Source: Candidatus Woesearchaeota archaeon (GTDB lineage: Archaea; Nanobdellota; Nanobdellia; Woesearchaeales; GCA-2687795). From it: a DNA stretch of 64,000 nucleotides. The notes under the pieces were generated by a model that was not told the origin of the DNA, ran no database searches, and saw only the letters and a list, made by a program, of their open reading frames with translations. The DNA lies in NCBI GenBank assembly GCA_030753365.1, contig JASMCJ010000008.1:928-64927 (forward strand), written 5' to 3'. Below, in pieces: positions 4,294 through 61,693 of the stretch (position 1 is the first letter of the stretch; every line of letters starts with the position of its first letter). The position numbers were made by a program, and so were the translations under genes.

Positions 4294-5235
4294 TTAAGCA
4301 AAGAACATGATTTTCATAAAGAGGTATGAAAGGTAGAATAAAATAAGGGTTACTGCTTCAGGCTTGCCAAGTTTCATTTTCTTTTTGAAGAAGAAGATTA
4401 GGAGTAATGAGACAAAGAACCAGAATGGGATGTCAAAGAAGGTGATTACTTTGTCTACAGTGTAACCTGAGACCATTGCACCTATGCCTAATGCAAATAA
4501 AGGGTTGGTTATGTTTGAACCTATTAGTGTGCCTAATGACATGCCTGTGGAACCTTTTAGGATTGCTCGTATGGCAACTGTGAGTTCAGGCAGCGCAGTG
4601 ATTAATCCAATTATTATGCTTCCTATAAAAGAGTCTCTTACTCCCCAAAGAGCTGCTAATGTGTCTGCGTTTGTTACAACGACTTTTGCAGAATATAATA
4701 GCAGCGCTAAGCCTATGCATGTTAAGATAGAGTGCTTTAGTATGTTATCCTTAGACTTATGATGATTTCTGAATATTTTTTCGCCTTTTGTTAGGTAGAT
4801 TAGGTAGCCAATGTAAATAAAGGTTAGGATGAAGCCTTCAGTTCTTGATATTTTACCATCTAAGCACATTACAAAAAGAAGGATGATGCCAGAGAGCATT
4901 ACTATGGAGTCTATATTAAGTATTTTCTTATGGGATTTTACAAGAACCATTAGACCTATTAAGCCCATGATAAAGGTTATCTGGATTATGTTGGAGCCAA
5001 TGTTTGTGCCTATTGCTATGTTGCTTGTATCAATTCCCTTTAAGACGTCCATGCTGACTACAAGATGGGTAAAGATTTCTGGAAGAGAAGTGGCGATGGA
5101 GAGAACTGTGAGACCTATGAAGGCTTCTGTCATGTTGATGGCTTTTGCAATTTTCTGGAGGTTTATGACTGCTATGCCTGCACTTATCCAGATGCCTATT
5201 AGGCCTAACATAAGATATAATATCTGAAGGTCCAT
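4294..5235 (-). CDS. Na+/Ca2+ exchanger family (CaCA, YrbG-like) membrane protein
   Basis: Polytopic, with two alpha-repeat-like motifs (ATSLPEIFTH and ITALPELTVAI) typical of CaCA antiporters. Confidence 0.75.
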   Translation of the reverse strand: MDLQILYLMLGLIGIWISAGIAVINLQKIAKAINMTEAFIGLTVLSIATSLPEIFTHLVVSMDVLKGIDTSNIAIGTNIGSNIIQITFIMGLIGLMVLVKSHKKILNIDSIVMLSGIILLFVMCLDGKISRTEGFILTFIYIGYLIYLTKGEKIFRNHHKSKDNILKHSILTCIGLALLLYSAKVVVTNADTLAALWGVRDSFIGSIIIGLITALPELTVAIRAILKGSTGMSLGTLIGSNITNPLFALGIGAMVSGYTVDKVITFFDIPFWFFVSLLLIFFFKKKMKLGKPEAVTLILFYLSYLFMKIMFFA

Positions 5236-5282
5236 AGAGTATTGTTTTTAGGATAGAATGTATATAAAGATTGTTATTTAAT

Positions 5283-5322
5283 AAAAATCCCAATCACAGC
5301 AAGCTGTGAGGTACGAAAAAAC
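5283..5322. terminator. Terminator-like hairpin module HP1: A-tract, CCCAATCACAG-CAAG-CTGTGAGG stem-loop, then a second small hairpin AAAAACC-TTT-GGTTTTT. Member of the dispersed hairpin family.
   Basis: Stem CACAG/CTGTG with CAAG tetraloop, flanked by AAAAATCCC. Same architecture as the copies at 10715, 13601, 31921 and 53415, with compensatory stem changes. Confidence 0.45.
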
Positions 5323-5351
5323 CTTTGGTTTTTGGTATCCCTCTGGAATAT

Positions 5352-5492
5352 TGTCAAAAGTCCGTGACCACCACCAGTCAATAGACTGGTGGCATGCTCG
5401 CCCACTCAAGTGGGCTCGGGTCACTCCCTCTTGAGCACATTTTATTCCACTTTGAACCACCAGTCTAGACTGGTGGAATAAAATGTTTTAAA
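5352..5492 (+). repeat. Structured repeat core, copy 1 (~141 nt) with nested perfect palindromes; near-identical to 18823..18962
   Basis: Contains CCACCAGTC-AATA-GACTGGTGG, GCCCAC-TCAA-GTGGGC and the perfect 20 nt palindrome CCACCAGTCTAGACTGGTGG. The outer pairs GTGACC/GGTCAC and CATTTTATTCCAC/GTGGAATAAAATG compete with the inner palindrome. Matches 18823..18962 with about 3 mismatches. Confidence 0.7.
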
Positions 5493-5507
5493 CTTCATAT
5501 TTTAATC

Positions 5508-5540
5508 CAACCGTTGCAAGCAACGGGGTATTAAACCCAT
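5508..5540. other. Hairpin module HP2 (CCAACCGTTG-CAAG-CAACGGGG then TATTAAACCC), enclosed by inverted repeat ACTTCAT/ATGAAGT
   Basis: Stem CGTTG/CAACG with CAAG tetraloop followed by GGGGTATTAAACCC. Homologous to GCCGATG-CAAG-CATCGGGGTATAAAACCC in the 99 nt repeat unit. Confidence 0.4.
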
Positions 5541-5579
5541 GAAGTAATAAAAAGATTTATATAATTAATAAATTGATGA

Positions 5580-6425
5580 ATGGTTATGATTGATATTAGC
5601 GCGCTTAATATAAAACCTGAAATACTTATTAAGATAATCAGGGTTGCTGTAATGCTTGTTATTCTTGAGGTATTGTATCAGATTATTACAAAGAGTATTA
5701 AGAAAGTTTTGCTTAATAAGATTAAGAGCAAAAGACAAAGATCTAATGTTATTGTATTCTTTAATATATTAAGATATTTGTTTATATTCCTGATAATACT
5801 TATACTGATATTTACTTATACTGGCTCATGGACAGGGTTAGGGATTTCAGCAGGATTGTTGACTGCTGCATTGGGTTGGGCATTGCAAAGGCCAATTACA
5901 GGCATTGCTGCATGGATTATGGTTGTTACGAAGAAACCATTTAGTATTGGAGATAGGATTATTATTGGCTCTGTTAAGGGAGATGTGTCTGATATAACAT
6001 TGACGCATATTTATCTGAAAGAGATTGGTGGGACTGTTGGAGGAGAGGAGAGTTCAGGAAGGATAATATTGGTGCCTAATTCTGTGCTTTTTGAGCAGAA
6101 TATTGTTAATTATACGATGCAGGATGAGTTTATATTGAGCGAGGTTAGGACACTTGTGACTTATGAGTCTAATCTTGATGAGGCTGTTAAAATATGTAAG
6201 GAAGCTGCGGGAAAGGTTACAAGGGATGTTTTAAATGAAGTTCCAGAGAAACCTGTTGTAAGGACGTTTTTTAAGGATTCAGGGATTGTTGTTAAGGTGA
6301 GATTTTTTACAAAGACTGATGATAAAATAAAGGCGGAGAGTGATATTACACAAGCTATATTTGAGATGGTGAAAGAGTCTAAGAATGTTGATATTGCTTA
6401 TCCGCATATACAAATAGTTAAGTAA
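5580..6425 (+). CDS. mscS: Small-conductance mechanosensitive channel (MscS family)
   Basis: Three N-terminal TM helices followed by the MscS beta-domain region (GDRIIIGSVKGDVSDITLTHIYLKE..ILVPNS). Confidence 0.8.
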   Translation: MVMIDISALNIKPEILIKIIRVAVMLVILEVLYQIITKSIKKVLLNKIKSKRQRSNVIVFFNILRYLFIFLIILILIFTYTGSWTGLGISAGLLTAALGWALQRPITGIAAWIMVVTKKPFSIGDRIIIGSVKGDVSDITLTHIYLKEIGGTVGGEESSGRIILVPNSVLFEQNIVNYTMQDEFILSEVRTLVTYESNLDEAVKICKEAAGKVTRDVLNEVPEKPVVRTFFKDSGIVVKVRFFTKTDDKIKAESDITQAIFEMVKESKNVDIAYPHIQIVK

Positions 6426-30647: not shown

Positions 30648-30911
30648 TTATTTTAGCTTTGAAGAGCGGTTTTTGCCTCCTGTTTTGTAAGGAGTATATT
30701 CACCTTTGGCTTTTTGTGATGTTCGTTCCTCAGGCGTTTCTTCATAGATTTCCCTTTCATCATAGCCGCAGTTGTCACAGACAATGCATTTGATTTGCTG
30801 ATAGTCGACAAGCTTTATTTTGCTTGATTTGCATTTTGGGCAGAGTTTCATTTGATCCATGTTTAAAGAGATTATCCTTTTTATATTTATCCAAAAAATA
30901 ATTAACCCCAT
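30648..30911 (-). CDS. Small zinc-ribbon protein
   Basis: CPKC..CIVCDNCG four-Cys ribbon; 87 aa. Confidence 0.4.
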   Translation of the reverse strand: MGLIIFWINIKRIISLNMDQMKLCPKCKSSKIKLVDYQQIKCIVCDNCGYDEREIYEETPEERTSQKAKGEYTPYKTGGKNRSSKLK

Positions 30912-47300: not shown

Positions 47301-48119
47301 TTATTCTTTAATATGTCCATCAACCCCAACAGTTATCTGTTTTAGAGTTATTCTTTTACCTGATTCATTTAATGCTTCTTCAACAATACTGTATAGTCCA
47401 TAGCAACATGGCACTTCCATGATTGCAACGGTTATTGTGTTAAGATTGTTCATTTCTATTATTCCTTTTATTTTTTCTTTGTATTCTTCTATATCATCAA
47501 GTTTAGGGCAGCCTATTGCTAGTGATCTTCCTTTGATTAATTGGCTTTGTAGGTTTGGGTTTGCAAAGCCAACACAGTCTGCTGCTATTAATAAGTCTGA
47601 GTCCTGAAAGAATGGTGCAGATGGTGGGAGAAGGTTGAGTTGGATAGGCCATTGCCTTAGTTCTGATTCTTGTTCAGAAGAAGGTTGGTTATTTTTGGGT
47701 TTTAATTCTCTTAGTTGTGTTCCTGGACAGCCGCAGGGTAAATCTTCTTTCATTTTAGTTTCCTCCATTGTGATTTTTATATTGTTTTCATTGAGATATT
47801 CTACCGCTTCATTGAGCAGTTTTGTTTCTCCATGATCTTTGAGATGTTTTAGATGCGCTTTGATTGTGTTTTCTCCATGTTTTACAATGTTTTCCATTGT
47901 TTTCTTTTCATCATAGGGTTCTGCTTCTCTCTCTTCTATGGTTATTGCGCCTTCAGGGCAGTGACCTATGCAAGCGCCTAAGCCATCACAGAATAAGTCA
48001 CTGATTAATCTTACTTTGCCATCTATTATTTGCAATGCGCCTTCTGGGCAGTTGGGGATGCATTTGCCGCAACCGTTGCATTTGGTTTCGTCTATTTTGA
48101 TTATACTTCTTTTTACCAT
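47301..48119 (-). CDS. 4Fe-4S dicluster-domain protein with Cys-rich C-terminal domain
   Basis: CNGCGKCIPNCP and CDGLGACIGHCP ferredoxin motifs; further Cys pairs (CGCPG, CPKL, PCCYG). Confidence 0.5.
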   Translation of the reverse strand: MVKRSIIKIDETKCNGCGKCIPNCPEGALQIIDGKVRLISDLFCDGLGACIGHCPEGAITIEEREAEPYDEKKTMENIVKHGENTIKAHLKHLKDHGETKLLNEAVEYLNENNIKITMEETKMKEDLPCGCPGTQLRELKPKNNQPSSEQESELRQWPIQLNLLPPSAPFFQDSDLLIAADCVGFANPNLQSQLIKGRSLAIGCPKLDDIEEYKEKIKGIIEMNNLNTITVAIMEVPCCYGLYSIVEEALNESGKRITLKQITVGVDGHIKE

Positions 48120-48152: not shown

Positions 48153-49400
48153 GTGATGGTTTTAGAATATAAGTTTAAGTCTCTGAATCGTTTATTTAAT
48201 AATTACAGTTTAAAACAAAAACCTTATATTCTTGTTAAACCAGTAATTATCTTTATGGTATATCAACCTTTAGAAGATTCACTTTTGTTAATGAAGTATA
48301 TTGACAAGTATTCAAAAGGAAGTGTGTTAGATATTGGTACAGGCTCTGGTGTATTAGCTGTTGAGGCTGCTAAGAATGCTGAGACGGTTGTTGGTGTTGA
48401 TATTGATGAGAAGGCTATTAAGTATTGTAAGAAAAATGTTAAGGATGAGAAGATTAGGTTTTTTAAGGGTAATTTGTTTAAGGATGTTAAGGGTAAGTTT
48501 GATTTGATTGTGTTTAATCCGCCGTATCTTCCTAAAGATAAGGAGGATAAAGATATTGCGCATTGCGGCGGGAAGCATGGGTATGAAGTTGTTGAGAGAT
48601 TTATTAGAGAAGTTGGCGATTATCTTGAGCCTGATGGGAAGGTTTTGTTGTTGTTTTCTTCGCTTACTAATAAAGAGAAGGTTGATGGGTTTGTTAAAGA
48701 GAATTTGCTTGGATTTGAGTTGTTGGAGGAGAAGAGCTTCTTTTTTGAGAAGCTGTATGTTTATCTTTTATGGAAGTCAGAGATTCTTGTTGAGCTGGAG
48801 AAGAGGTTTGAGAAGATTAAGTTTTTGGAGAGAGGACATAGAGGAATGTTGTTTACTGGGAAGTTTGATGGCAAGAAGGTTGCGATTAAAGTGAAGAATC
48901 CTGAGAGTGAAGCGATTGAGAGGATTGGGAATGAAAGGAACTGGCTTGAAAGGCTGAATAATCGAGGGATTGGGCCTAAACTTTTGGTTAAGGAGAAGGA
49001 ATACTTTGCTTATAGGTTTGTTGAAGGAGAGTTTATTCTTGACTTTTTGGGGAGAGCTTGTAAGAGAGATATTGTTAAGGTTATAACAGCAGTGTTTGAG
49101 CAGCTTTTTGTTTTGGATAAACTGGGTGTTAATAAGGAAGAGATGCATCATCCAGTTAAGCATGTTATTGTTGGGAAGAATTTGAAAGTTACTTTGTTGG
49201 ATTTTGAGAGATGCCATAGAAGTTTGAAGCCGAAGAATGTTACACAGTTTTGTCAGTTTGTTTGTTTGAAGAAGGTTTCTGAGTTGCTGAAGAAGAAGAA
49301 AATTAAGATTAGTATGAAGAAGATGATTAAGAGCGCTAAGATGTATAAAGGGGAGATGAGTGAGGAGAGTTTGGAGGGGATTTTGGAGAATATTAAGTAA
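48153..49400 (+). CDS. Fusion of an Mtq2/HemK-type SAM-dependent methyltransferase (NPPY motif) with a C-terminal Bud32/RIO-like kinase-fold domain that lacks canonical catalytic motifs
   Basis: N-terminus EDSLLLMKY..LDIGTGSGVLAV..LIVFNPPYLP. C-terminus LERGHRGMLFTGKFDGKKVAIKV (Gly-loop/VAIK-like). HGD is replaced by HPVKH and DFG by DFE. Confidence 0.55.
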   Translation: MMVLEYKFKSLNRLFNNYSLKQKPYILVKPVIIFMVYQPLEDSLLLMKYIDKYSKGSVLDIGTGSGVLAVEAAKNAETVVGVDIDEKAIKYCKKNVKDEKIRFFKGNLFKDVKGKFDLIVFNPPYLPKDKEDKDIAHCGGKHGYEVVERFIREVGDYLEPDGKVLLLFSSLTNKEKVDGFVKENLLGFELLEEKSFFFEKLYVYLLWKSEILVELEKRFEKIKFLERGHRGMLFTGKFDGKKVAIKVKNPESEAIERIGNERNWLERLNNRGIGPKLLVKEKEYFAYRFVEGEFILDFLGRACKRDIVKVITAVFEQLFVLDKLGVNKEEMHHPVKHVIVGKNLKVTLLDFERCHRSLKPKNVTQFCQFVCLKKVSELLKKKKIKISMKKMIKSAKMYKGEMSEESLEGILENIK

Positions 49401-51857: not shown

Positions 51858-52388
51858 ATGCCTGACAGATTTTCTTTGATTGTTGATAAGTATAGAGAGT
51901 TTACTGATTCTTTGTTGAATAAGGGTGTACTTCCATTAAGGGAAACTTCTAATGGTTTTTGGGGGATTTCTGTTTGTGAAGAGGTTTTTGAATTGTTTAG
52001 GAAGATTAGGCTGCAATGTTATAGGAGTTTTATTGATGTTGGCTCAGGAGATGGAAGGGTTACTGCGATTGCTTCTTTGTTTACAAATGCTGTAGGGATA
52101 GAATCTGATAAAGAGCTTTATGAGATGAGTGTGAAGATTAAAGAAGAGTTGGGGTTGAACTGTGAGTTTGTTAACAAAGATTTTTATGAGTATGATGTGT
52201 CAAGGTTTGAGGTTGTTTATTGCTTTCCTGATAATTTGAGCTATAGATTTGAGAAGAAGATGGTGGAAGAGTTGAAGGGGAAACTTGTTATGAGCGGTGC
52301 GAATTCAGGGCTTAGTGGGCTTAAGGAAGATAAAAGAATGGTGATTTTAGGAAATAGGTTTTTGGTGTATTCTAAGGGAAAGGATTAA
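51858..52388 (+). CDS. Small class-I SAM-methyltransferase-like protein (hypothetical)
   Basis: IDVGSGDGRV glycine-rich SAM-binding-like motif; 176 aa. Confidence 0.4.
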   Translation: MPDRFSLIVDKYREFTDSLLNKGVLPLRETSNGFWGISVCEEVFELFRKIRLQCYRSFIDVGSGDGRVTAIASLFTNAVGIESDKELYEMSVKIKEELGLNCEFVNKDFYEYDVSRFEVVYCFPDNLSYRFEKKMVEELKGKLVMSGANSGLSGLKEDKRMVILGNRFLVYSKGKD

Positions 52389-54084: not shown

Positions 54085-55776
54085 ATGAATGTTAAGATTG
54101 AGGAGATAAAATCCTTAGAAGGCAGCGATGGCAGTAAAGGTTGGCCTGTAGCTGTTAAGGATAGAGTAGCTTATCATTGTTTTAAAGATGATGAAGGAAG
54201 TGATTGTCCTAATGTTGCGGTGACTTTCTTATGGACTATGAGGGATGCTGTTATTCCTAAGCTTGATAAGGAGAATCTTGCGATTGCTACTAACTTTTAT
54301 ACGCCATCAGGGCTTACTGGGATGTTGAGGAATATTTTAGGGAATCCTTACATAAGATATATTATATTGTTAGGAGAAGAGTATTCTTCTAAGTCTGGAG
54401 ATGGCACTGCCAAAAGTGAAGAAGGTGTTGAACTTACAAGTGCTAATGCACTAAGGGCTTTTTTTGAGAAAGGGATTGATGAGAACAGGAAGGTTCCAGG
54501 ATTTGAAAATGCTATTTATATTGATAAGAATATTCCTTCTGAAATGGTTATAAAGGTTAAAGATAATGTTAAACTTATTGATTTGAATAAGGATATGCCT
54601 GATGCAAGTTTTGAAGAGAAGGTGGAGAAAGCTAATGATTTGATTAGGATGCTTGAGAGAAAAGAGCCGTTTATTGATAAACCTTGCACTTTTGAGTATG
54701 AGAAGTCTAAGGTTTCTATGAATTATGAAGGAGGGCCTTTGGTTGTGCATGGGAATAGTATTCCAGAGATCTGGGTTGATGTTATTCATAATATTTACAG
54801 GTATGGAAGGGATAATCTGATGAATGCTGAGACTGACAGATGGGTTAAGGAGATTAATAATATGGTGGCTGTTATTCATGAGCCGCAGAATGTTGATTTA
54901 TCTTTTAATCCGTTTTTGGTTCCACTGACTGAAGAGAAGATCGAGGCTTATAAGAAAGAGATTTTGTCTCCTATATTGCCTGAAGGGAAGGCTTATACCT
55001 ATGGGAATAAGCTGAGGGCTTATTATTATCCTTCTGCTGAGGAGATTAAGGAGTTGGTTAACTCTAAAGAGTATAAGGATTTTGAGTTTGGAAAAGGAGT
55101 TCACCTTGATGCTAATGTTAGTTATAAGAAAGAATACTGTGAGATTGACCAGCTGCAGGATATGATTGAGGTGCTTAAGAGAGATCCTTATTCTAAGGCT
55201 GTTGTTGGGATTACATGGCATGCACAAGATGAGTTGATGAGGAAACATAAGAGCAGCCCATGCCTTGCTATGCTGCAAGCTATGATACAGGATGAGAAAT
55301 TAAATTTGTTTGTGTTTTTCAGGAGCCATGATATGACTCAAGGATGGCCAGAGAATGCTTATGGGTGTGCTGCAATACAGAAGAAGATTGCTGATGAAGT
55401 AGGGGTTGAGGCTGGTATCCTTACTATTGTTTCTGGGAGCGCGCAGATTTATAATCATTATTATCAGCAGATTGAGGATATGCTTGCTAAGCATAGGAAG
55501 CAGAAGATTGATTATAAAGATTCAAGAGGGAATTATGTTATTGAGGTTAAGGAAGGTAAGATTGTTGTTTGCCATGTTGATGGGCAGAGCAATCAGGAGC
55601 TTGAGAGGTTTGAAGGTGGTAGTGCATCTAGTGTTGGGTTGAAGATTTCTCATGCTGGGCAGATTCATAAGACTGACCATGCGATTTATTTAGGAAGAGA
55701 GTTGCAGAAGGCTGAGCATGCTTTGAAGTCAGGGAAGAAGTATGAGCAGGATGTTGAAATTATAAAAGAAAAATAA
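54085..55776 (+). CDS. Thymidylate-synthase-fold (ThyA family) protein with a ~200 aa N-terminal extension and insertions
   Basis: The C-terminal half aligns block-by-block with ThyA: DQLQDMIEVLKRDPYSKAVVGITWH, SPCLAMLQAMIQDEKLNLFVFFRSHD (PCH/QRSxD equivalents), GWPENAYGCAAI, GILTIVSGSAQIYNHY. 563 aa. Confidence 0.65.
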   Translation: MNVKIEEIKSLEGSDGSKGWPVAVKDRVAYHCFKDDEGSDCPNVAVTFLWTMRDAVIPKLDKENLAIATNFYTPSGLTGMLRNILGNPYIRYIILLGEEYSSKSGDGTAKSEEGVELTSANALRAFFEKGIDENRKVPGFENAIYIDKNIPSEMVIKVKDNVKLIDLNKDMPDASFEEKVEKANDLIRMLERKEPFIDKPCTFEYEKSKVSMNYEGGPLVVHGNSIPEIWVDVIHNIYRYGRDNLMNAETDRWVKEINNMVAVIHEPQNVDLSFNPFLVPLTEEKIEAYKKEILSPILPEGKAYTYGNKLRAYYYPSAEEIKELVNSKEYKDFEFGKGVHLDANVSYKKEYCEIDQLQDMIEVLKRDPYSKAVVGITWHAQDELMRKHKSSPCLAMLQAMIQDEKLNLFVFFRSHDMTQGWPENAYGCAAIQKKIADEVGVEAGILTIVSGSAQIYNHYYQQIEDMLAKHRKQKIDYKDSRGNYVIEVKEGKIVVCHVDGQSNQELERFEGGSASSVGLKISHAGQIHKTDHAIYLGRELQKAEHALKSGKKYEQDVEIIKEK

Positions 55777-60079: not shown

Positions 60080-61693
60080 TTAACCGCCTAAAGCTGCAAG
60101 CTTTACATCTGTCTTTAGCTCCATAATATCGTAATTAATCTTTCTTTTTTCTTCGTCTTCAGTGCTTAAGTTTTTATGAAGGTTTTCTATCTGAGATATT
60201 ACTTTCATGGCTTCTGCTGTGTCTCGCATCTGGATTAATTGCCTTGCTTTTGTAATGAGAGGATTTATTTCAGGGTGAGTGAGTGAAGACTCTTCTTCCG
60301 CTGCACCAAAGCTTATTGGTGGGAGCTTGCCCTGTTCTTTGATGTATAAGTGAAACTTTTCTTCGTTTGCATAGTTTTCCTTATTTGAGATATTGGATTC
60401 TCTTTGCTTTAATTCATGTGATGTTTTTTTTATGAGTGTTTCTTTTTCTCTTAGATCAATTTCTTTGTCTTTTAAGAATCCTAATTTTGCTGCGCCTTCC
60501 CGAGTGAGCTTTTCTAATCTTTTTGTTTCCAACTGTTGTTCTTTTTGGAGTTTGGAAATGGCTTGTCTTATCTCAGGCATTTTCTTTTCATATTCTTTTG
60601 CCTTGTTGACAATGTCTTCTCTCTTTCTGATTTCTTTTTCTTTACTTAGTATGCTATTTTCCTTTTCTTTAAGGAAGAGTTTTGCTTCTCCAATCTGGTT
60701 TATTTTGTTTATTATTCCCTGTTCTTTGTCATCTAAGGCTTTTTTGCCTTTTTCTAAAAGAGTGATTTTATCAATGACTGCTTGTTCTTCTTTCTTTAAG
60801 TCTTTTACACCAGATTCAATGACTTTTGAACGGTTTAGGAATATGCCTTTTATGCCTCCTAAGAATGCAAGGTCTTTTCTTAGATGTTTTTCTTTTTCGA
60901 GCCATTGGCTTTCAAGCTTTTCAAGCTGTACCTGTTTTTTGATGAAGCCTCTCTCGATTTCTTTTTTGTTTTCCATCAATGCTGCCATGCCGTCGCTTAT
61001 TTCCTGTTTTGTTGTTTGGAGCAGTTTTAGTTTGATTTCTACCTTCTTTTCTTCTTTTTGAAGTATTTTCTTATTTGTTGTAATTTCTTTGGCTGTGATG
61101 ACTAATTCTTTTTCCTTTTTTGATAATAAAACCTGGTCAGCTTCAAGCTGATTGACACTTTTGATGATTTCTTCTTCTTTTTTATAGAGAGCCTGTTCGT
61201 CATCATTGAATAGTCCACCTTTTGATTCAAAGTCCTGAGATTGTTGGAGCAGTTGGTTTTGTTTTTTGGTTAAGAGGTTTAGTTTTCTTTCTACATTTTT
61301 CCTGTCTTTTGCTAATAACTTTCTTCTTTCCGCTAAATCTTTTTGTAGATTAGAAAGGGATTTTTCTTTTTCAATTAATTGTGGTTCCCGTGAGGTTAGG
61401 TTCTTTGGTATTTTATTTAGTTTTTTAGATATTTTTATTTTTTTCTGTAAGGCTCTCTTTTGGGCCTGTAGCTCTTTTGTTTCCTTTTTGAGCTTTGCCT
61501 TCTGCTCATTGAACTTGGTGAGCTTTCTGTTAAAAATCTTATTAAGAGGTGATAAAGAAACAGTCGGAGCTATCTTTTTTCCGCCAATCTTGAATATTTT
61601 TTTTACTTTGCCCAGATTAAGTCTTCTTAATTCCGGCGGTGGTTCTGGCGGTTTCTCTAATACTGCGTCTAACCCCCGTTTTCTAGCTCCCAT
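60080..61693 (-). CDS. Large coiled-coil protein (Lys/Glu-rich)
   Basis: 537 aa of almost continuous heptad-type sequence; basic, Pro-rich N-terminus. Confidence 0.45.
   Translation of the reverse strand: MGARKRGLDAVLEKPPEPPPELRRLNLGKVKKIFKIGGKKIAPTVSLSPLNKIFNRKLTKFNEQKAKLKKETKELQAQKRALQKKIKISKKLNKIPKNLTSREPQLIEKEKSLSNLQKDLAERRKLLAKDRKNVERKLNLLTKKQNQLLQQSQDFESKGGLFNDDEQALYKKEEEIIKSVNQLEADQVLLSKKEKELVITAKEITTNKKILQKEEKKVEIKLKLLQTTKQEISDGMAALMENKKEIERGFIKKQVQLEKLESQWLEKEKHLRKDLAFLGGIKGIFLNRSKVIESGVKDLKKEEQAVIDKITLLEKGKKALDDKEQGIINKINQIGEAKLFLKEKENSILSKEKEIRKREDIVNKAKEYEKKMPEIRQAISKLQKEQQLETKRLEKLTREGAAKLGFLKDKEIDLREKETLIKKTSHELKQRESNISNKENYANEEKFHLYIKEQGKLPPISFGAAEEESSLTHPEINPLITKARQLIQMRDTAEAMKVISQIENLHKNLSTEDEEKRKINYDIMELKTDVKLAALGG

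What the first reader, a model, noticed from the sequence alone, without database searches (positions are those of the whole stretch)
48153..49400. Mtq2-type methyltransferase fused to a degenerate Bud32/RIO-like kinase fold
The N-terminal half has the release-factor glutamine methyltransferase hallmarks (EDSxLL, GTGSG, NPPY). The C-terminal half has a Gly-rich loop and a VAIK-like lysine typical of Bud32/RIO kinases. It lacks the catalytic HGD (HPVKH instead) and has DFE instead of DFG, so it is likely a pseudokinase or ATP-binding regulatory domain. Bud32 normally partners with Kae1 in tRNA t6A synthesis, and Mtq2 acts on aRF1. A covalent fusion would link two translation-related activities and is not a standard arrangement.
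Basis: partly seen in the sequence, partly recalled or inferred. Interest (0 to 1): 0.5.

Follow-up and report, generated by a model that had tools for sequence, protein, structure and literature searches.

The report
Release-factor methyltransferase fused to tRNA kinase
This Woesearchaeota gene joins the methyltransferase that normally modifies the translation release factor to an intact ArkI-type RNA kinase (the enzyme that puts a 2'-phosphate on tRNA U47), not to a dead Bud32/RIO kinase; the fusion is the usual form of these genes across this archaeal lineage, and databases annotate only the methyltransferase half.

Summary
The true start is the ATG at 48255, giving 381 aa rather than 415. 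The N-half (48255-48779) is a bona fide Mtq2/HemK2-family methyltransferase: it passes both NCBIfam cutoffs and folds like Mtq2-Trm112. The C-half (48780-49397) is not a degenerate Bud32/RIO pseudokinase. It belongs to the ArkI (AQ578/COG2112) RNA-kinase family. The two solved ArkI structures are its best matches by a wide margin (profile E 7.5e-23 and 5e-15, against >=1.6e-4 for any other kinase; TM 0.73-0.80). PRPK/Bud32 and RIO2 come only in the second tier. DFE in place of DFG and a non-HRD catalytic loop are hallmarks of the active ArkI enzyme, and every ArkI-type catalytic position is invariant in 65 fused homologues. The fusion occurs in at least 68 species-level DPANN genomes. Where the genes are split they are usually adjacent. 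The most likely function is a bifunctional translation-machinery modifier that methylates the aRF1 GGQ glutamine and 2'-phosphorylates tRNA U47. Whether the methyltransferase half acts on aRF1 or on tRNA is unresolved. I rate it a new variant of known kinds, of moderate interest.

The parts
48255..49400 (+). Complete gene for the 381-aa Mtq2-ArkI fusion protein (ATG 48255, TAA 49398-49400)
   Evidence: ORF. Start supported by homologue N-termini and by identical 381-aa gene calls on 13 contigs. The same protein is NCBI MDP7141554.1 'methyltransferase [Ca. Woesearchaeota archaeon]'.
48153..48254 (+). In-frame 5' extension of the mechanical ORF (GTG start); most likely untranslated promoter/leader shared with the divergent ferredoxin-domain gene 47301-48119 (-)
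   Evidence: Not covered by any homologue (about 91% query coverage; alignment). AT-rich TATA-like stretches are visible.
48255..48779 (+). Mtq2/HemK2-family class I SAM-dependent methyltransferase domain (residues 1-175)
   Evidence: NF011529 189.4 bits (cutoff 162) and TIGR00537 145.5 bits (cutoff 87). PF05175 MTS 1.2e-20. Foldseek 3q87_B Mtq2-Trm112 TMt 0.81 and N6AMT1/HEMK2 TMt 0.67-0.75.
48261..48281 (+). N-terminal Y-x-P-x-E-D-S motif of Mtq2-type enzymes
   Evidence: Y3, E7, D8 and S9 are invariant in 65 homologues. Translation verified.
48330..48350 (+). Motif I (DIGTGSG), SAM binding
   Evidence: D26, G28, T29 and G30 are invariant. Verified.
48516..48527 (+). Motif IV NPPY, the catalytic motif of amide/amino N-methyltransferases
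   Evidence: N88-P89-P90-Y91 are invariant. Verified.
48780..49397 (+). ArkI (AQ578/COG2112)-family RNA kinase domain (residues 176-381)
   Evidence: phmmer: 8yv5 2e-10, 7vnx 1e-8. Profile: 7.5e-23 and 5e-15. Domain model pLDDT 96.1. Foldseek ranks 1-4 are ArkI structures, TM 0.73-0.80. Net charge +16, pI 9.7.
48834..48845 (+). P-loop GHRG (R196-G197 correspond to TkArkI K32-G33)
   Evidence: Alignment to 7vnx. G194, R196 and G197 are invariant. K32A and G33A abolish TkArkI activity.
48879..48890 (+). VAIK; K212 corresponds to TkArkI K51 (ATP phosphate contact). Its partner alphaC Glu is E227 at 48933-48935 (TkArkI E65).
49134..49163 (+). Catalytic loop KEEMHHPVKH. K302 corresponds to TkArkI K137. 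K294 and E296 occupy the H130 and Q132 positions, the same variant as G. acetivorans Ark1 (QKEEMNHPDRH).
   Evidence: Alignments. K294, E296, M297, P300, K302 and H303 are invariant.
49200..49208 (+). Metal-binding DFE (D316 corresponds to TkArkI D149, which is essential)
49236..49244 (+). Subdomain IX N-V-T (N328 and T330 correspond to TkArkI N160 and T162)
49344..49349 (+). Y364-K365 of the ArkI-specific alpha7 'YKR' RNA-binding motif (third residue is G here)
   Evidence: Y364 and K365 are invariant. K201A severely reduces TkArkI activity. GaArk1 has YKK.

Best explanation
The gene encodes a bifunctional enzyme that modifies the translation machinery. Residues 1-175 form an Mtq2/HemK2-type SAM-dependent methyltransferase. 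By orthology this methylates the N5 amide of the GGQ glutamine of release factor aRF1. Residues 176-381 form an ArkI-type, ATP-dependent RNA kinase. By homology this phosphorylates the 2'-OH of U47 in the 5-nt variable loop of class I tRNAs (Up47). Both active sites are intact and under purifying selection. The two activities are probably chemically independent. In Woesearchaeota they have been locked into one polypeptide, or into an adjacent gene pair, so that they are made together in equal amounts. What is shown: the domain identities, the intact catalytic motifs, the conservation, the spread of the fusion and the gene linkage. What is inferred: the actual substrates (aRF1 and tRNA U47) and whether there is any functional cross-talk between the halves.
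For: MTase half: it exceeds the curated cutoffs of NF011529 and TIGR00537 (HemK2/MTQ2). The fused, split and solo versions in the lineage all pass the same models, so they form one orthogroup. The fold matches Mtq2-Trm112 and HEMK2. The YxPxEDS, GTGSG and NPPY motifs are invariant. Archaeal Mtq2 has been shown to methylate the aRF1 GGQ motif and is reported in all archaeal phyla (PMC6144793).

Kinase half: ArkI structures are the top hits by sequence and by fold. The TkArkI residues shown essential by mutagenesis map as K32/G33 to R196/G197, K51 to K212, E65 to E227, K137 to K302, D149 to D316, N160/T162 to N328/T330 and Y200/K201 to Y364/K365, and all are invariant. The KEE catalytic-loop variant is shared with ATP-bound G. 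acetivorans Ark1. The domain is strongly basic (+16 here, family mean +25), as expected for a tRNA binder. Standalone relatives are annotated COG2112, the COG of ArkI.

Linkage: 68 of 80 species-representative genome loci are fused and the others are adjacent or near-adjacent. Six of seven distinct standalone-kinase loci have the same-family MTase upstream on the same strand. Of the top 150 family cluster representatives, 81 carry the full MTase.

Precedent: NCBIfam NF002421 describes a bifunctional PrmC/TrmB, a release-factor Gln methyltransferase joined to the tRNA m7G46 methyltransferase, which acts on the neighbouring variable-loop position. A tRNA-Val in a fusion-bearing genome has the G46-U47-C48 five-base variable loop.
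Against: There is no biochemistry for any member of this clade. Identity to the solved ArkI enzymes is only 23-26%. The HGQ triplet of TkArkI (H130 and Q132 are both important) is KEE here, and the P-loop Lys is Arg. ArkI and Up47 were described mainly in thermophiles as a thermostabiliser, whereas this protein comes from marine and groundwater DPANN (a Tara mesopelagic cluster member), so the physiological rationale is unclear. I could not show that the fused MTase is the only Mtq2 in the genome, and I found no Trm112, aRF1 or KptA in the window. The recurrent linkage of an Ogt-like nucleic-acid-binding domain to the kinase hints at a joint function directed at nucleic acid, which would favour the rival explanation in which the MTase also acts on RNA. 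Only two class-I tRNAs could be inspected, and one of them lacks U47.
Confidence: 0.6

Rival explanations
1. This is a dual tRNA-modifying enzyme. The NPPY methyltransferase half has been recruited to methylate an exocyclic amino group of a tRNA base (for example m2G or m6A near the tRNA core), and it works together with the ArkI half on the same tRNA, possibly also with the Ogt-like protein encoded downstream in many relatives.
For: The fusion and operon linkage is tight and recurrent. Such linkage usually means action on a shared substrate or pathway. NPPY enzymes include tRNA/rRNA m2G and m6A methyltransferases, and weaker hits to RsmC, TrmN and Trm11-like structures appear. A third, nucleic-acid-binding partner (PF01035/TIGR00589) is co-oriented downstream in 35 of 84 loci and is fused to the kinase in 5 cluster representatives.
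Against: The MTase half scores far higher on the Mtq2 model (145 bits) than on RsmC (53) or TrmN (35). Solo, kinase-unlinked copies of the same orthogroup exist (L079, L082-L085). No second Mtq2-type gene was seen, although only about 64 kb plus flanks could be checked. The MTase half is near neutral in charge, not basic.
Confidence: 0.2
2. The kinase domain serves the methyltransferase instead of modifying tRNA. It could be a built-in substitute for the Trm112 activator, a docking platform that recognises the tRNA-like aRF1/aEF1alpha complex, or an ATP/guanosine-sensing regulator, with or without protein-kinase activity.
For: Eukaryotic and haloarchaeal Mtq2 need Trm112 for solubility and activity, and Trm112 is missing from some archaeal orders (PMC6144793). 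No Trm112-like ORF is present in the window. The full-length model has a high pTM of 0.84, which suggests a fixed packing of the two domains. TkArkI binds guanosine and has a high Km for ATP, which its authors interpret as sensing.
Against: Standalone kinases of the same clade are abundant and keep all catalytic residues. Full conservation of the P-loop, Lys-Glu pair, catalytic Lys, DFE, NxT and YK is not needed for a scaffold.
Confidence: 0.1
3. One reading: an Mtq2 methyltransferase fused to a degenerate Bud32/RIO-like pseudokinase that links release-factor methylation to the Kae1/t6A system.
For: PRPK (the human Bud32 orthologue) and RIO2 are the next-best folds after ArkI (E about 2e-7 to 8e-7, TM about 0.6). 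There is a weak Bud32 NCBIfam hit at E 0.0036. AQ578, piD261/Bud32 and RIO are sister atypical-kinase families (PMC5007285).
Against: The Bud32 model scores 17 bits against a 372-bit cutoff, and Pfam RIO1 gives no hit. ArkI structures win by 5-6 orders of magnitude and about twice the identity. The 'degenerate' motifs are the active ArkI signature and are invariant. No Kae1 is nearby.
Confidence: 0.04
4. WbdD-like sequential chemistry: the kinase phosphorylates a ribose hydroxyl and the methyltransferase then methylates that phosphate, producing a methyl-phosphate mark.
For: The top full-length structural hits are the bifunctional methyltransferase-kinase WbdD, which has the same N-to-C domain order (4azt, 4azs, 4ax8; E about 1e-13).
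Against: The match is weak as a whole (TMq 0.40-0.45, rmsd about 9.5 A, 16-17% identity), so it is two separate domain matches and not a shared assembly. From general knowledge of these enzymes, an invariant NPPY motif marks N-methylation of amide or amino groups, not O-methylation of phosphate. Solo MTases of the same orthogroup exist.
Confidence: 0.03
5. The fusion is an artefact: two adjacent genes merged by an assembly or frameshift error.
For: Adjacent split versions exist in some MAGs (L004, L067, L081, L088).
Against: An uninterrupted fused reading frame is found in 68 species-level genomes, in more than 120 protein clusters at 90% identity, and in 13 independent contigs for this exact protein.
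Confidence: 0.01

Closest known systems
ArkI (archaeal RNA kinase; AQ578 family, COG2112): T. kodakarensis TK2051 (PDB 7vnx) and G. acetivorans Ark1 (PDB 8yv4/8yv5)
   Same: It has the same small two-lobed atypical kinase fold (TM 0.73-0.80). It keeps the P-loop, the VAIK Lys, the alphaC Glu, the catalytic-loop Lys, DFE in place of DFG, the N-x-T of subdomain IX and the C-terminal YK motif. It has a strongly basic surface. The catalytic loop KEEMxHPxxH is the G. acetivorans subtype.
   Different: Identity is only 23-26%. The kinase is fused to, or operon-linked with, an Mtq2-type methyltransferase, whereas the characterised ArkI enzymes are single-domain proteins. HGQ of TkArkI is KEE here, the P-loop Lys is Arg, and YKR is YKG. 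The hosts are mesophilic or cold-water DPANN, not thermophiles. Activity is untested.
Mtq2/HemK2 (N6AMT1/KMT9)-Trm112, the eRF1/aRF1 GGQ glutamine N5-methyltransferase (PDB 3q87, 6h1d; H. volcanii HVO_2744)
   Same: It is a single Rossmann domain of about 175 aa without the bacterial PrmC N-terminal domain. It has the YxPxEDS, GxGxG and NPPY motifs, passes the TIGR00537 cutoff and has TMt 0.81 to E. cuniculi Mtq2.
   Different: It carries a C-terminal kinase domain. No Trm112 partner has been identified. The substrate has not been verified.
Bifunctional PrmC/TrmB (NCBIfam NF002421, PRK01544)
   Same: The logic is the same: a release-factor glutamine methyltransferase covalently joined to an enzyme that modifies the tRNA variable loop (m7G46, next to U47).
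   Different: It is bacterial. The domains are different and not homologous in detail (PrmC instead of Mtq2; the TrmB methyltransferase instead of a kinase). The window protein scores only about 30 bits against a 567-bit cutoff, so it is an analogue and not a member.
WbdD (E. coli O9a), a bifunctional methyltransferase-kinase (PDB 4azt, 4azs, 4ax8)
   Same: It has an N-terminal class I methyltransferase followed by a protein-kinase-like domain, and it is the top full-length Foldseek hit.
   Different: It acts on the end of a polymannose O-antigen and methylates the phosphate that its own kinase adds. It has a C-terminal coiled-coil ruler. Identity is 16-17%, rmsd about 9.5 A, and the methyltransferase family is different.
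Bud32/PRPK (piD261) and RIO kinases
   Same: They are sister families of small atypical Hanks-type kinases that lack the activation segment and subdomain X. They are the second-tier fold matches (TM about 0.6).
   Different: They keep DFG/DxxxxN-type catalytic motifs, partner with Kae1 (Bud32) or carry a wHTH/RIO-specific N-terminal domain (RIO), and share only 13-14% identity. Their family models are not matched.

Membership tests
ArkI / AQ578 / COG2112 RNA kinase | Sequence-profile membership: solved ArkI proteins are the best and clearly separated matches | tested here: met
   A2 profile against the PDB: 8yv4/8yv5 at 7.5e-23, 7vnx at 5.2e-15, next hit (a generic kinase) at 1.6e-4. Single sequence: 2e-10 and 1e-8. 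Standalone close relatives are labelled COG2112/K07176, which is the COG of ArkI.
ArkI / AQ578 / COG2112 RNA kinase | Compact two-lobe ePK-like fold of about 200 aa with the ArkI-specific alpha6 and long alpha7, and without subdomains VIII and X | tested here: met
   The kinase-only model has pLDDT 96.1. Foldseek ranks 1-4 are 7vnx and 8yv4/8yv5 with TM 0.73-0.80. The domain is 206 aa, and after the DFE strand it consists only of helices (DSSP).
ArkI / AQ578 / COG2112 RNA kinase | ATP-site residues: P-loop K32-G33, K51 and E65 (TkArkI numbering) | tested here: met
   They correspond to R196-G197 (K to R, conservative), K212 and E227, all invariant in 65 homologues.
ArkI / AQ578 / COG2112 RNA kinase | Catalytic loop: HGQ replacing HRD, plus K137 | tested here: inconclusive
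   K137 corresponds to K302 and is conserved. H130 and Q132 are K294 and E296 here (KEE). This differs from TkArkI but is identical to G. acetivorans Ark1 (QKEEMNHPDRH) and is invariant in the clade.
ArkI / AQ578 / COG2112 RNA kinase | DFE (not DFG) metal-binding triplet with an essential Asp | tested here: met
   D316-F317-E318 are invariant. The paper states DFE for TkArkI and that D149A is inactive.
ArkI / AQ578 / COG2112 RNA kinase | Subdomain IX N160/T162 and the alpha7 YKR motif with a basic tRNA-binding surface | tested here: met
   N328 and T330 are invariant. Y364 and K365 are invariant, with the third residue variable (G here). Net charge is +16, with a family mean of +25 and pI about 10.
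ArkI / AQ578 / COG2112 RNA kinase | ATP-dependent 2'-O-phosphorylation of U47 in class I tRNAs with a 5-nt variable loop | not testable with these tools
   This needs biochemistry or RNA mass spectrometry. The only indirect support is one tRNA-Val in a fusion-bearing genome with A44-G45-G46-U47-C48; a tRNA-Ala there has C47.
Mtq2 / HemK2 (N5-glutamine methyltransferase of e/aRF1) | Passes the curated family models | tested here: met
   TIGR00537 145.5 bits (cutoff 87) and NF011529 189.4 bits (cutoff 162) for residues 1-182. The bacterial PrmC model is not passed (90 against 199).
Mtq2 / HemK2 (N5-glutamine methyltransferase of e/aRF1) | Single class I Rossmann domain with the N-terminal YxPxEDS, motif I GxGxG and motif IV NPPY, and no PrmC-type N-terminal helical domain | tested here: met
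   The motifs are invariant and verified. The protein starts 2 residues before the YxPxEDS motif. Fold: 3q87_B TMt 0.81 and HEMK2 TMt 0.67-0.75.
Mtq2 / HemK2 (N5-glutamine methyltransferase of e/aRF1) | It is the lineage's Mtq2 orthologue, not an extra paralogue | tested here: inconclusive
   Fused, split and solo copies all pass the same equivalog. There is no second copy in the 64-kb window. The second MTase in L076 lacks NPPY and fails the cutoffs. Whole genomes could not be searched.
Mtq2 / HemK2 (N5-glutamine methyltransferase of e/aRF1) | Works with the Trm112 activator | not tested
   No PF03966-like ORF in the window; the one zinc-ribbon candidate (30648-30911) is not Trm112. Trm112 is dispensable in vivo in H. 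volcanii and absent in some archaea.
Mtq2 / HemK2 (N5-glutamine methyltransferase of e/aRF1) | Methylates the Gln of GGQ in aRF1 bound to its GTPase | not testable with these tools
   This needs an enzyme assay or mass spectrometry of aRF1.
Bud32 / piD261 (KEOPS kinase) | Matches the Bud32 family model and keeps Bud32 catalytic motifs | tested here: not met
   NF011461 scores 17.1 bits against a cutoff of 372. PRPK structures are second tier (E 1.8e-7, 13-14% identity). The triplet is DFE, not DFG.
Bud32 / piD261 (KEOPS kinase) | Genomic or physical partnership with Kae1 | tested here: not met
   No Kae1-like gene was found among the window ORFs tested or next to the gene in 80 related loci, where the conserved partners are the Mtq2-type MTase and an Ogt-like gene. 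The rest of the genome was not searchable.
RIO kinase | Matches the RIO1 domain model (PF01163) and has the RIO-specific N-terminal extension | tested here: not met
   There is no PF01163 hit for this protein at E<=10. RIO2 structures are second tier (E 8e-7, 13-14% identity).
WbdD-type methyltransferase-kinase | Homologous two-domain assembly with a C-terminal coiled coil | tested here: not met
   TMq 0.40-0.45, rmsd about 9.5 A, 16-17% identity. The protein ends right after the kinase domain.

The most novel reading that the evidence does not exclude
The Mtq2-type methyltransferase, the ArkI-type kinase and, in many relatives, the Ogt-like domain form one RNA-directed module peculiar to Woesearchaeota. 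In this reading the 'release-factor' methyltransferase has acquired, or always had, a tRNA substrate. The fused enzyme then installs a coupled pair of marks in or around the tRNA variable loop (Up47 plus a base N-methylation, or a modified 2'-phosphate). That would be a tRNA modification pathway not yet described, in mesophilic, genome-reduced archaea.
Probability: 0.15. Interest if true: 0.8.

Novelty: new variant of a known kind. Interest (0 to 1): 0.55.

Why it matters
First, it assigns a specific, testable function to a domain that public databases leave blank. The protein is annotated only as 'methyltransferase' or 'release factor glutamine methyltransferase', and no Pfam or NCBIfam model covers the C-half.

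Second, it predicts that internal tRNA 2'-phosphorylation (Up47) is widespread in mesophilic and cold-water DPANN archaea. Up47 was discovered in 2022 and interpreted as a thermophile adaptation. The exhaustive search finds 1,579 clusters (at 50% identity) of this kinase family, and the top-ranked members are from DPANN. This bears on what Up47 is actually for.

Third, the recurrent fusion and operon linkage is a 'Rosetta stone' that connects release-factor methylation with tRNA-core modification. It parallels the bacterial PrmC/TrmB fusion, which pairs the release-factor methyltransferase with the enzyme for the neighbouring variable-loop position 46. Together the two cases suggest a general but unexplained coupling between these processes, or an unrecognised RNA substrate for Mtq2-type enzymes.

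Tried and rejected
- **Bud32/RIO assignment:** rejected.
- **Pseudokinase reading:** rejected, because every ArkI-type catalytic residue is present and invariant.
- **Assembly or frameshift artefact:** rejected.
- **Paralogues of either half in the window:** none found.
- **Kae1, Bud32, RIO, aRF1, KptA or Trm112 in the window:** none among the ORFs tested. The test was not exhaustive and the rest of the genome is not available.
- **Small ORFs between the MTase and the kinase in split loci, as possible Trm112:** they are small membrane proteins or unrelated inserts.
- **Second HemK-like MTase in L076, as a rival 'true Mtq2':** it lacks NPPY and fails the cutoffs.
- **tRNA census for U47:** no tRNA in the window and only two usable tRNAs in 92 loci, so it is uninformative.
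- **Literature search for a prior description of the fusion, for 8yv4/8yv5 and for COG2112:** nothing beyond the two ArkI papers.
- **Profile search to reach non-DPANN ArkI relatives and their contexts:** the top 120 stayed within DPANN.
- **AFDB fold search:** the library is unavailable.
- **Inspection of the interdomain interface:** model coordinates are not exposed.
Full report
**Observation.** The window holds an uninterrupted + strand ORF at 48153..49400 (415 aa). The first 34 codons are an over-extension. Homologues begin at the equivalent of M35 (MVYQPLEDS). Independent gene callers on 13 metagenome contigs call exactly the 381-aa product starting at ATG 48255. The same protein is deposited as NCBI MDP7141554.1/MDP7505940.1 'methyltransferase [Candidatus Woesearchaeota archaeon]'. 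JGI names it 'release factor glutamine methyltransferase', and a >=90%-identical cluster member comes from a Tara mesopelagic sample labelled COG2890. Residue numbers below refer to the 381-aa protein.

**N-terminal half (1-175; nt 48255-48779).** It matches Pfam MTS (1.2e-20). It exceeds the curated cutoffs of two NCBIfam models: NF011529 (189 bits, cutoff 162) and TIGR00537 'HemK2/MTQ2 family protein methyltransferase' (145 bits, cutoff 87). It fails the bacterial PrmC, PrmB, RsmC and TrmN models by wide margins. In the full-length AlphaFold model (pLDDT 91.6, pTM 0.84) this half superposes on E. cuniculi Mtq2 from the Mtq2-Trm112 complex (3q87_B, TMt 0.81) and on human HEMK2/N6AMT1 (TMt 0.67-0.75). 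The YxPxEDS motif, motif I (D26, G28-T29-G30) and NPPY (88-91) are invariant in 65 diverse homologues. Archaeal Mtq2 has been shown experimentally to methylate the GGQ glutamine of aRF1 and is reported in all archaeal phyla (PMC6144793).

**C-terminal half (176-381; nt 48780-49397).**
- No Pfam or NCBIfam model covers it meaningfully. The best are choline kinase at E 0.023 and Bud32 at 17 bits against a 372-bit cutoff.
- Against solved structures the only significant sequence matches are TkArkI (7vnx, 1e-8) and 8yv4/8yv5 (2e-10). The PDB titles 8yv4/8yv5 'G. acetivorans RNA kinase Ark1', and one entry is an ATP complex.
- A profile of the domain plus 40 standalone relatives raises these matches to 5e-15 and 7.5e-23. 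The next hits are generic protein kinases at >=1.6e-4, and no Bud32 or RIO entry appears in the top 60.
- A model of the domain alone (pLDDT 96.1) gives the ArkI structures as Foldseek ranks 1-4 (E 5.5e-13 to 2.6e-11, TM 0.73-0.80, 23-25% identity). Human PRPK (the Bud32 orthologue) follows at 1.8e-7 and RIO2 at 8e-7 (TM about 0.6, 13-14% identity).
AQ578, piD261/Bud32 and RIO are sister atypical Hanks-type families (PMC5007285). The family itself is ArkI/AQ578/COG2112.

**Is the kinase degenerate? No.** The ArkI paper (PMC9095486) states that active TkArkI has HGQ instead of HRD and DFE instead of DFG. It reports that K32, G33, K51, E65, H130, Q132, K137, D149, N160, T162 and Y200-K201-R202 matter for tRNA phosphorylation. 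Using the HMMER alignment (chain numbering is offset by 7) these map as follows:

| TkArkI | This protein |
|---|---|
| K32 / G33 | R196 / G197 |
| K51 | K212 |
| E65 | E227 |
| H130 | K294 |
| Q132 | E296 |
| K137 | K302 |
| D149 | D316 |
| N160 / T162 | N328 / T330 |
| Y200-K201-R202 | Y364-K365-G366 |

Every one of these positions except the last is invariant across the 65 fused homologues, and they are conserved in the standalone relatives. The only non-conservative differences from TkArkI, H130 to K and Q132 to E, are shared with G. acetivorans Ark1 (QKEEMNHPDRH). They therefore define a subtype and are not decay. The domain is strongly basic (net +16, pI 9.7; family mean +25, pI 10) while the MTase half is near neutral. 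This matches the positively charged tRNA-binding face described for TkArkI.

**Distribution and linkage.**
- The full-length protein has more than 120 homologous clusters (at 90% identity) of about 385-390 aa covering about 91% of the query. All of those that carry a name come from Woesearchaeota or Nanoarchaeota.
- A scan of species-representative genomes returned 80 loci. By half-specific profiles, 68 are fused (plus L047, which has a divergent N-half). L067 and L081 are adjacent or overlapping. In L076, L078 and L080 one unrelated ORF separates the two genes. Five or six show only the MTase within 6 kb.
- The labels are Woesearchaeota, Nanoarchaeota, Nanoarchaeia or generic. Some third-party bins are labelled 'uncultured Methanosarcinales archaeon', which I regard as doubtful.
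- Standalone ~200-aa kinases (COG2112/K07176) are also common in the lineage. In six of seven distinct loci examined, an MTase of the same family (224-234 bits on my N-half profile; 186 for L004) lies upstream on the same strand. The exception is preceded by a NUDIX gene.
- An exhaustive profile search finds 1,579 clusters (at 50% identity) of this kinase family, 493 of them at E<=1e-30. Of the top 150, 81 carry a full MTase domain, 9 carry a truncated one and 60 carry none.
- On a neighbour-joining tree of 140 kinase domains, the fused and standalone states change at least 26 times, against 45 +/- 3 for shuffled labels. This indicates repeated fusion and fission, although some apparent splits may be frameshifts in metagenome-assembled genomes.
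- Fused, split and solo MTases all pass the same equivalog model, so the fused N-half is the lineage's ordinary Mtq2-type gene and not an obvious divergent paralogue.

**Context in this window.** The neighbours are DsbB, DsbD/CcdA, a divergent ferredoxin-domain gene, SPFH/Band 7, a HAD hydrolase, a CxxCxxCC protein and ribosomal protein S6e. None is related in function, and the gene looks monocistronic. There is no paralogue of either half in the 64 kb. I found no Kae1, Bud32, RIO, aRF1, KptA or Trm112 among the ORFs tested, and no tRNA gene.

**Mechanism.**
- The best-supported reading is a bifunctional enzyme in which an Mtq2-type aRF1 GGQ methyltransferase and an ArkI-type tRNA U47 2'-kinase are made as one chain. 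The domain identities and intact active sites are shown. The substrates are inferred by orthology and homology.
- A close logical precedent is NCBIfam NF002421, a bifunctional PrmC/TrmB that joins the bacterial release-factor glutamine methyltransferase to the tRNA m7G46 methyltransferase. Position 46 is next to U47 in the variable loop.
- One tRNA-Val in a fusion-bearing genome has the required G46-U47-C48 five-base loop. Only two tRNAs could be examined.
- The main rival is that the NPPY methyltransferase acts on tRNA together with the kinase. The tight linkage and a third conserved partner favour it. The much stronger match to Mtq2 than to RNA methyltransferases, the existence of unlinked solo copies and the neutral charge of the MTase half argue against it.
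- Other rivals are a kinase that serves as a Trm112 surrogate or regulator, and WbdD-like phosphate methylation. WbdD is the top full-length structural hit, but only as two separate domain matches (TMq 0.40-0.45, rmsd 9.5 A). Both are less likely.

**Third partner (not in this window).**
- In 35 of 84 kinase-bearing loci, a ~100-aa gene for an Ogt/MGMT catalytic domain lies downstream. It matches PF01035 and passes TIGR00589, and its PCHR cysteine motif is intact.
- It is on the same strand in all but one locus, and its start overlaps the stop of the fusion gene in about 15 loci.
- Five cluster representatives are kinase-Ogt fusions.
- I have no explanation for this. It is the strongest hint that the module may have a joint nucleic-acid substrate.

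**Novelty.** Both domains belong to known families. What appears to be undescribed is:
- the fusion itself;
- its dominance in a whole archaeal lineage;
- its occurrence in mesophilic and cold-water DPANN, although ArkI was described as mainly thermophilic.

The searchable literature contains only two ArkI papers, and their text and supplements mention no fusion and no DPANN. Public annotation ignores the kinase half. I classify it as a new variant of a known kind, with an interest score of about 0.55.

Noticed in passing
L014 7206-7502; L017 7149-7460; L029 7166-7480; L013 7183-7488; also P0328, P0368, P0403, P0405, P0409: A ~100-aa Ogt/MGMT catalytic-domain gene (PF01035, passes TIGR00589, PCHR motif intact) lies downstream of the Mtq2-ArkI gene or of the standalone kinase in 35 of 84 loci. 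It is on the same strand in all but L060 and often overlaps the upstream stop codon. Five cluster representatives are kinase-Ogt fusions. It is absent from this window.
   Followed up: partly
window 48153-48254: The mechanical ORF start (GTG 48153) over-extends the gene by 34 codons. The real start is ATG 48255. The 135-nt AT-rich spacer to the divergent gene 47301-48119 (-) contains TATA-like stretches.
   Followed up: yes
P0002 (NCBI MDP7610234.1, 398 aa): This protein is 99% identical to the window protein over 87% of its length, but its N-terminus is a bacterial-PrmC-like sequence (RKEFWSLGFNVNHNVLIPRPETE...). It is either a chimeric contig or a different N-terminal variant.
   Followed up: no
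L009 4779-4851: A tRNA-Ala(CGC) gene ends about 20 nt upstream of the fusion gene (match at 4872-5969). Its variable loop is AGGCU (C47), so it is not an expected ArkI substrate.
   Followed up: no
L001-L004, L078, L080, L087, L088: A TFIIB (TFB) gene lies convergent, a short distance downstream of the kinase gene in many loci. Its synteny is conserved with the module.
   Followed up: no
L086 3561-3998; L087 3762-3992; L089 3762-3992: Small hydrophobic (membrane-like) ORFs of 76-145 aa sit between the MTase gene and the kinase gene in some split loci. They have no Pfam match and are not Trm112.
   Followed up: partly
window 54085-55776 (+): A 563-aa ORF combines an MtrA-like region, a partial thymidylate synthase domain and a PterinBD-DUF4346 domain. 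This is an unusual architecture for a ThyA-like protein.
   Followed up: no
window 60080-61693 (-): A 537-aa ORF has no Pfam hit at E<=0.001.
   Followed up: no
window 51858-52388 (+): A small (176 aa) DOT1-like/RrnaAD-like methyltransferase gene abuts the ribosomal protein S6e gene; its start codon immediately follows the S6e stop.
   Followed up: no
L012, L016, L020-L023, L025, L028, L030 and other loci: Many third-party-assembled bins that carry this Woesearchaeota-type gene are titled 'uncultured Methanosarcinales archaeon'. The label is probably a taxonomic placeholder or an error, since the gene and its neighbourhood match the DPANN genomes.
   Followed up: no
L076 902-1582: A second, distinct 226-aa class I methyltransferase (PrmA/MTS-like, with ANLPIM where NPPY would be) lies 4.4 kb upstream of the solo Mtq2-type gene. 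It fails the Mtq2 cutoffs.
   Followed up: yes
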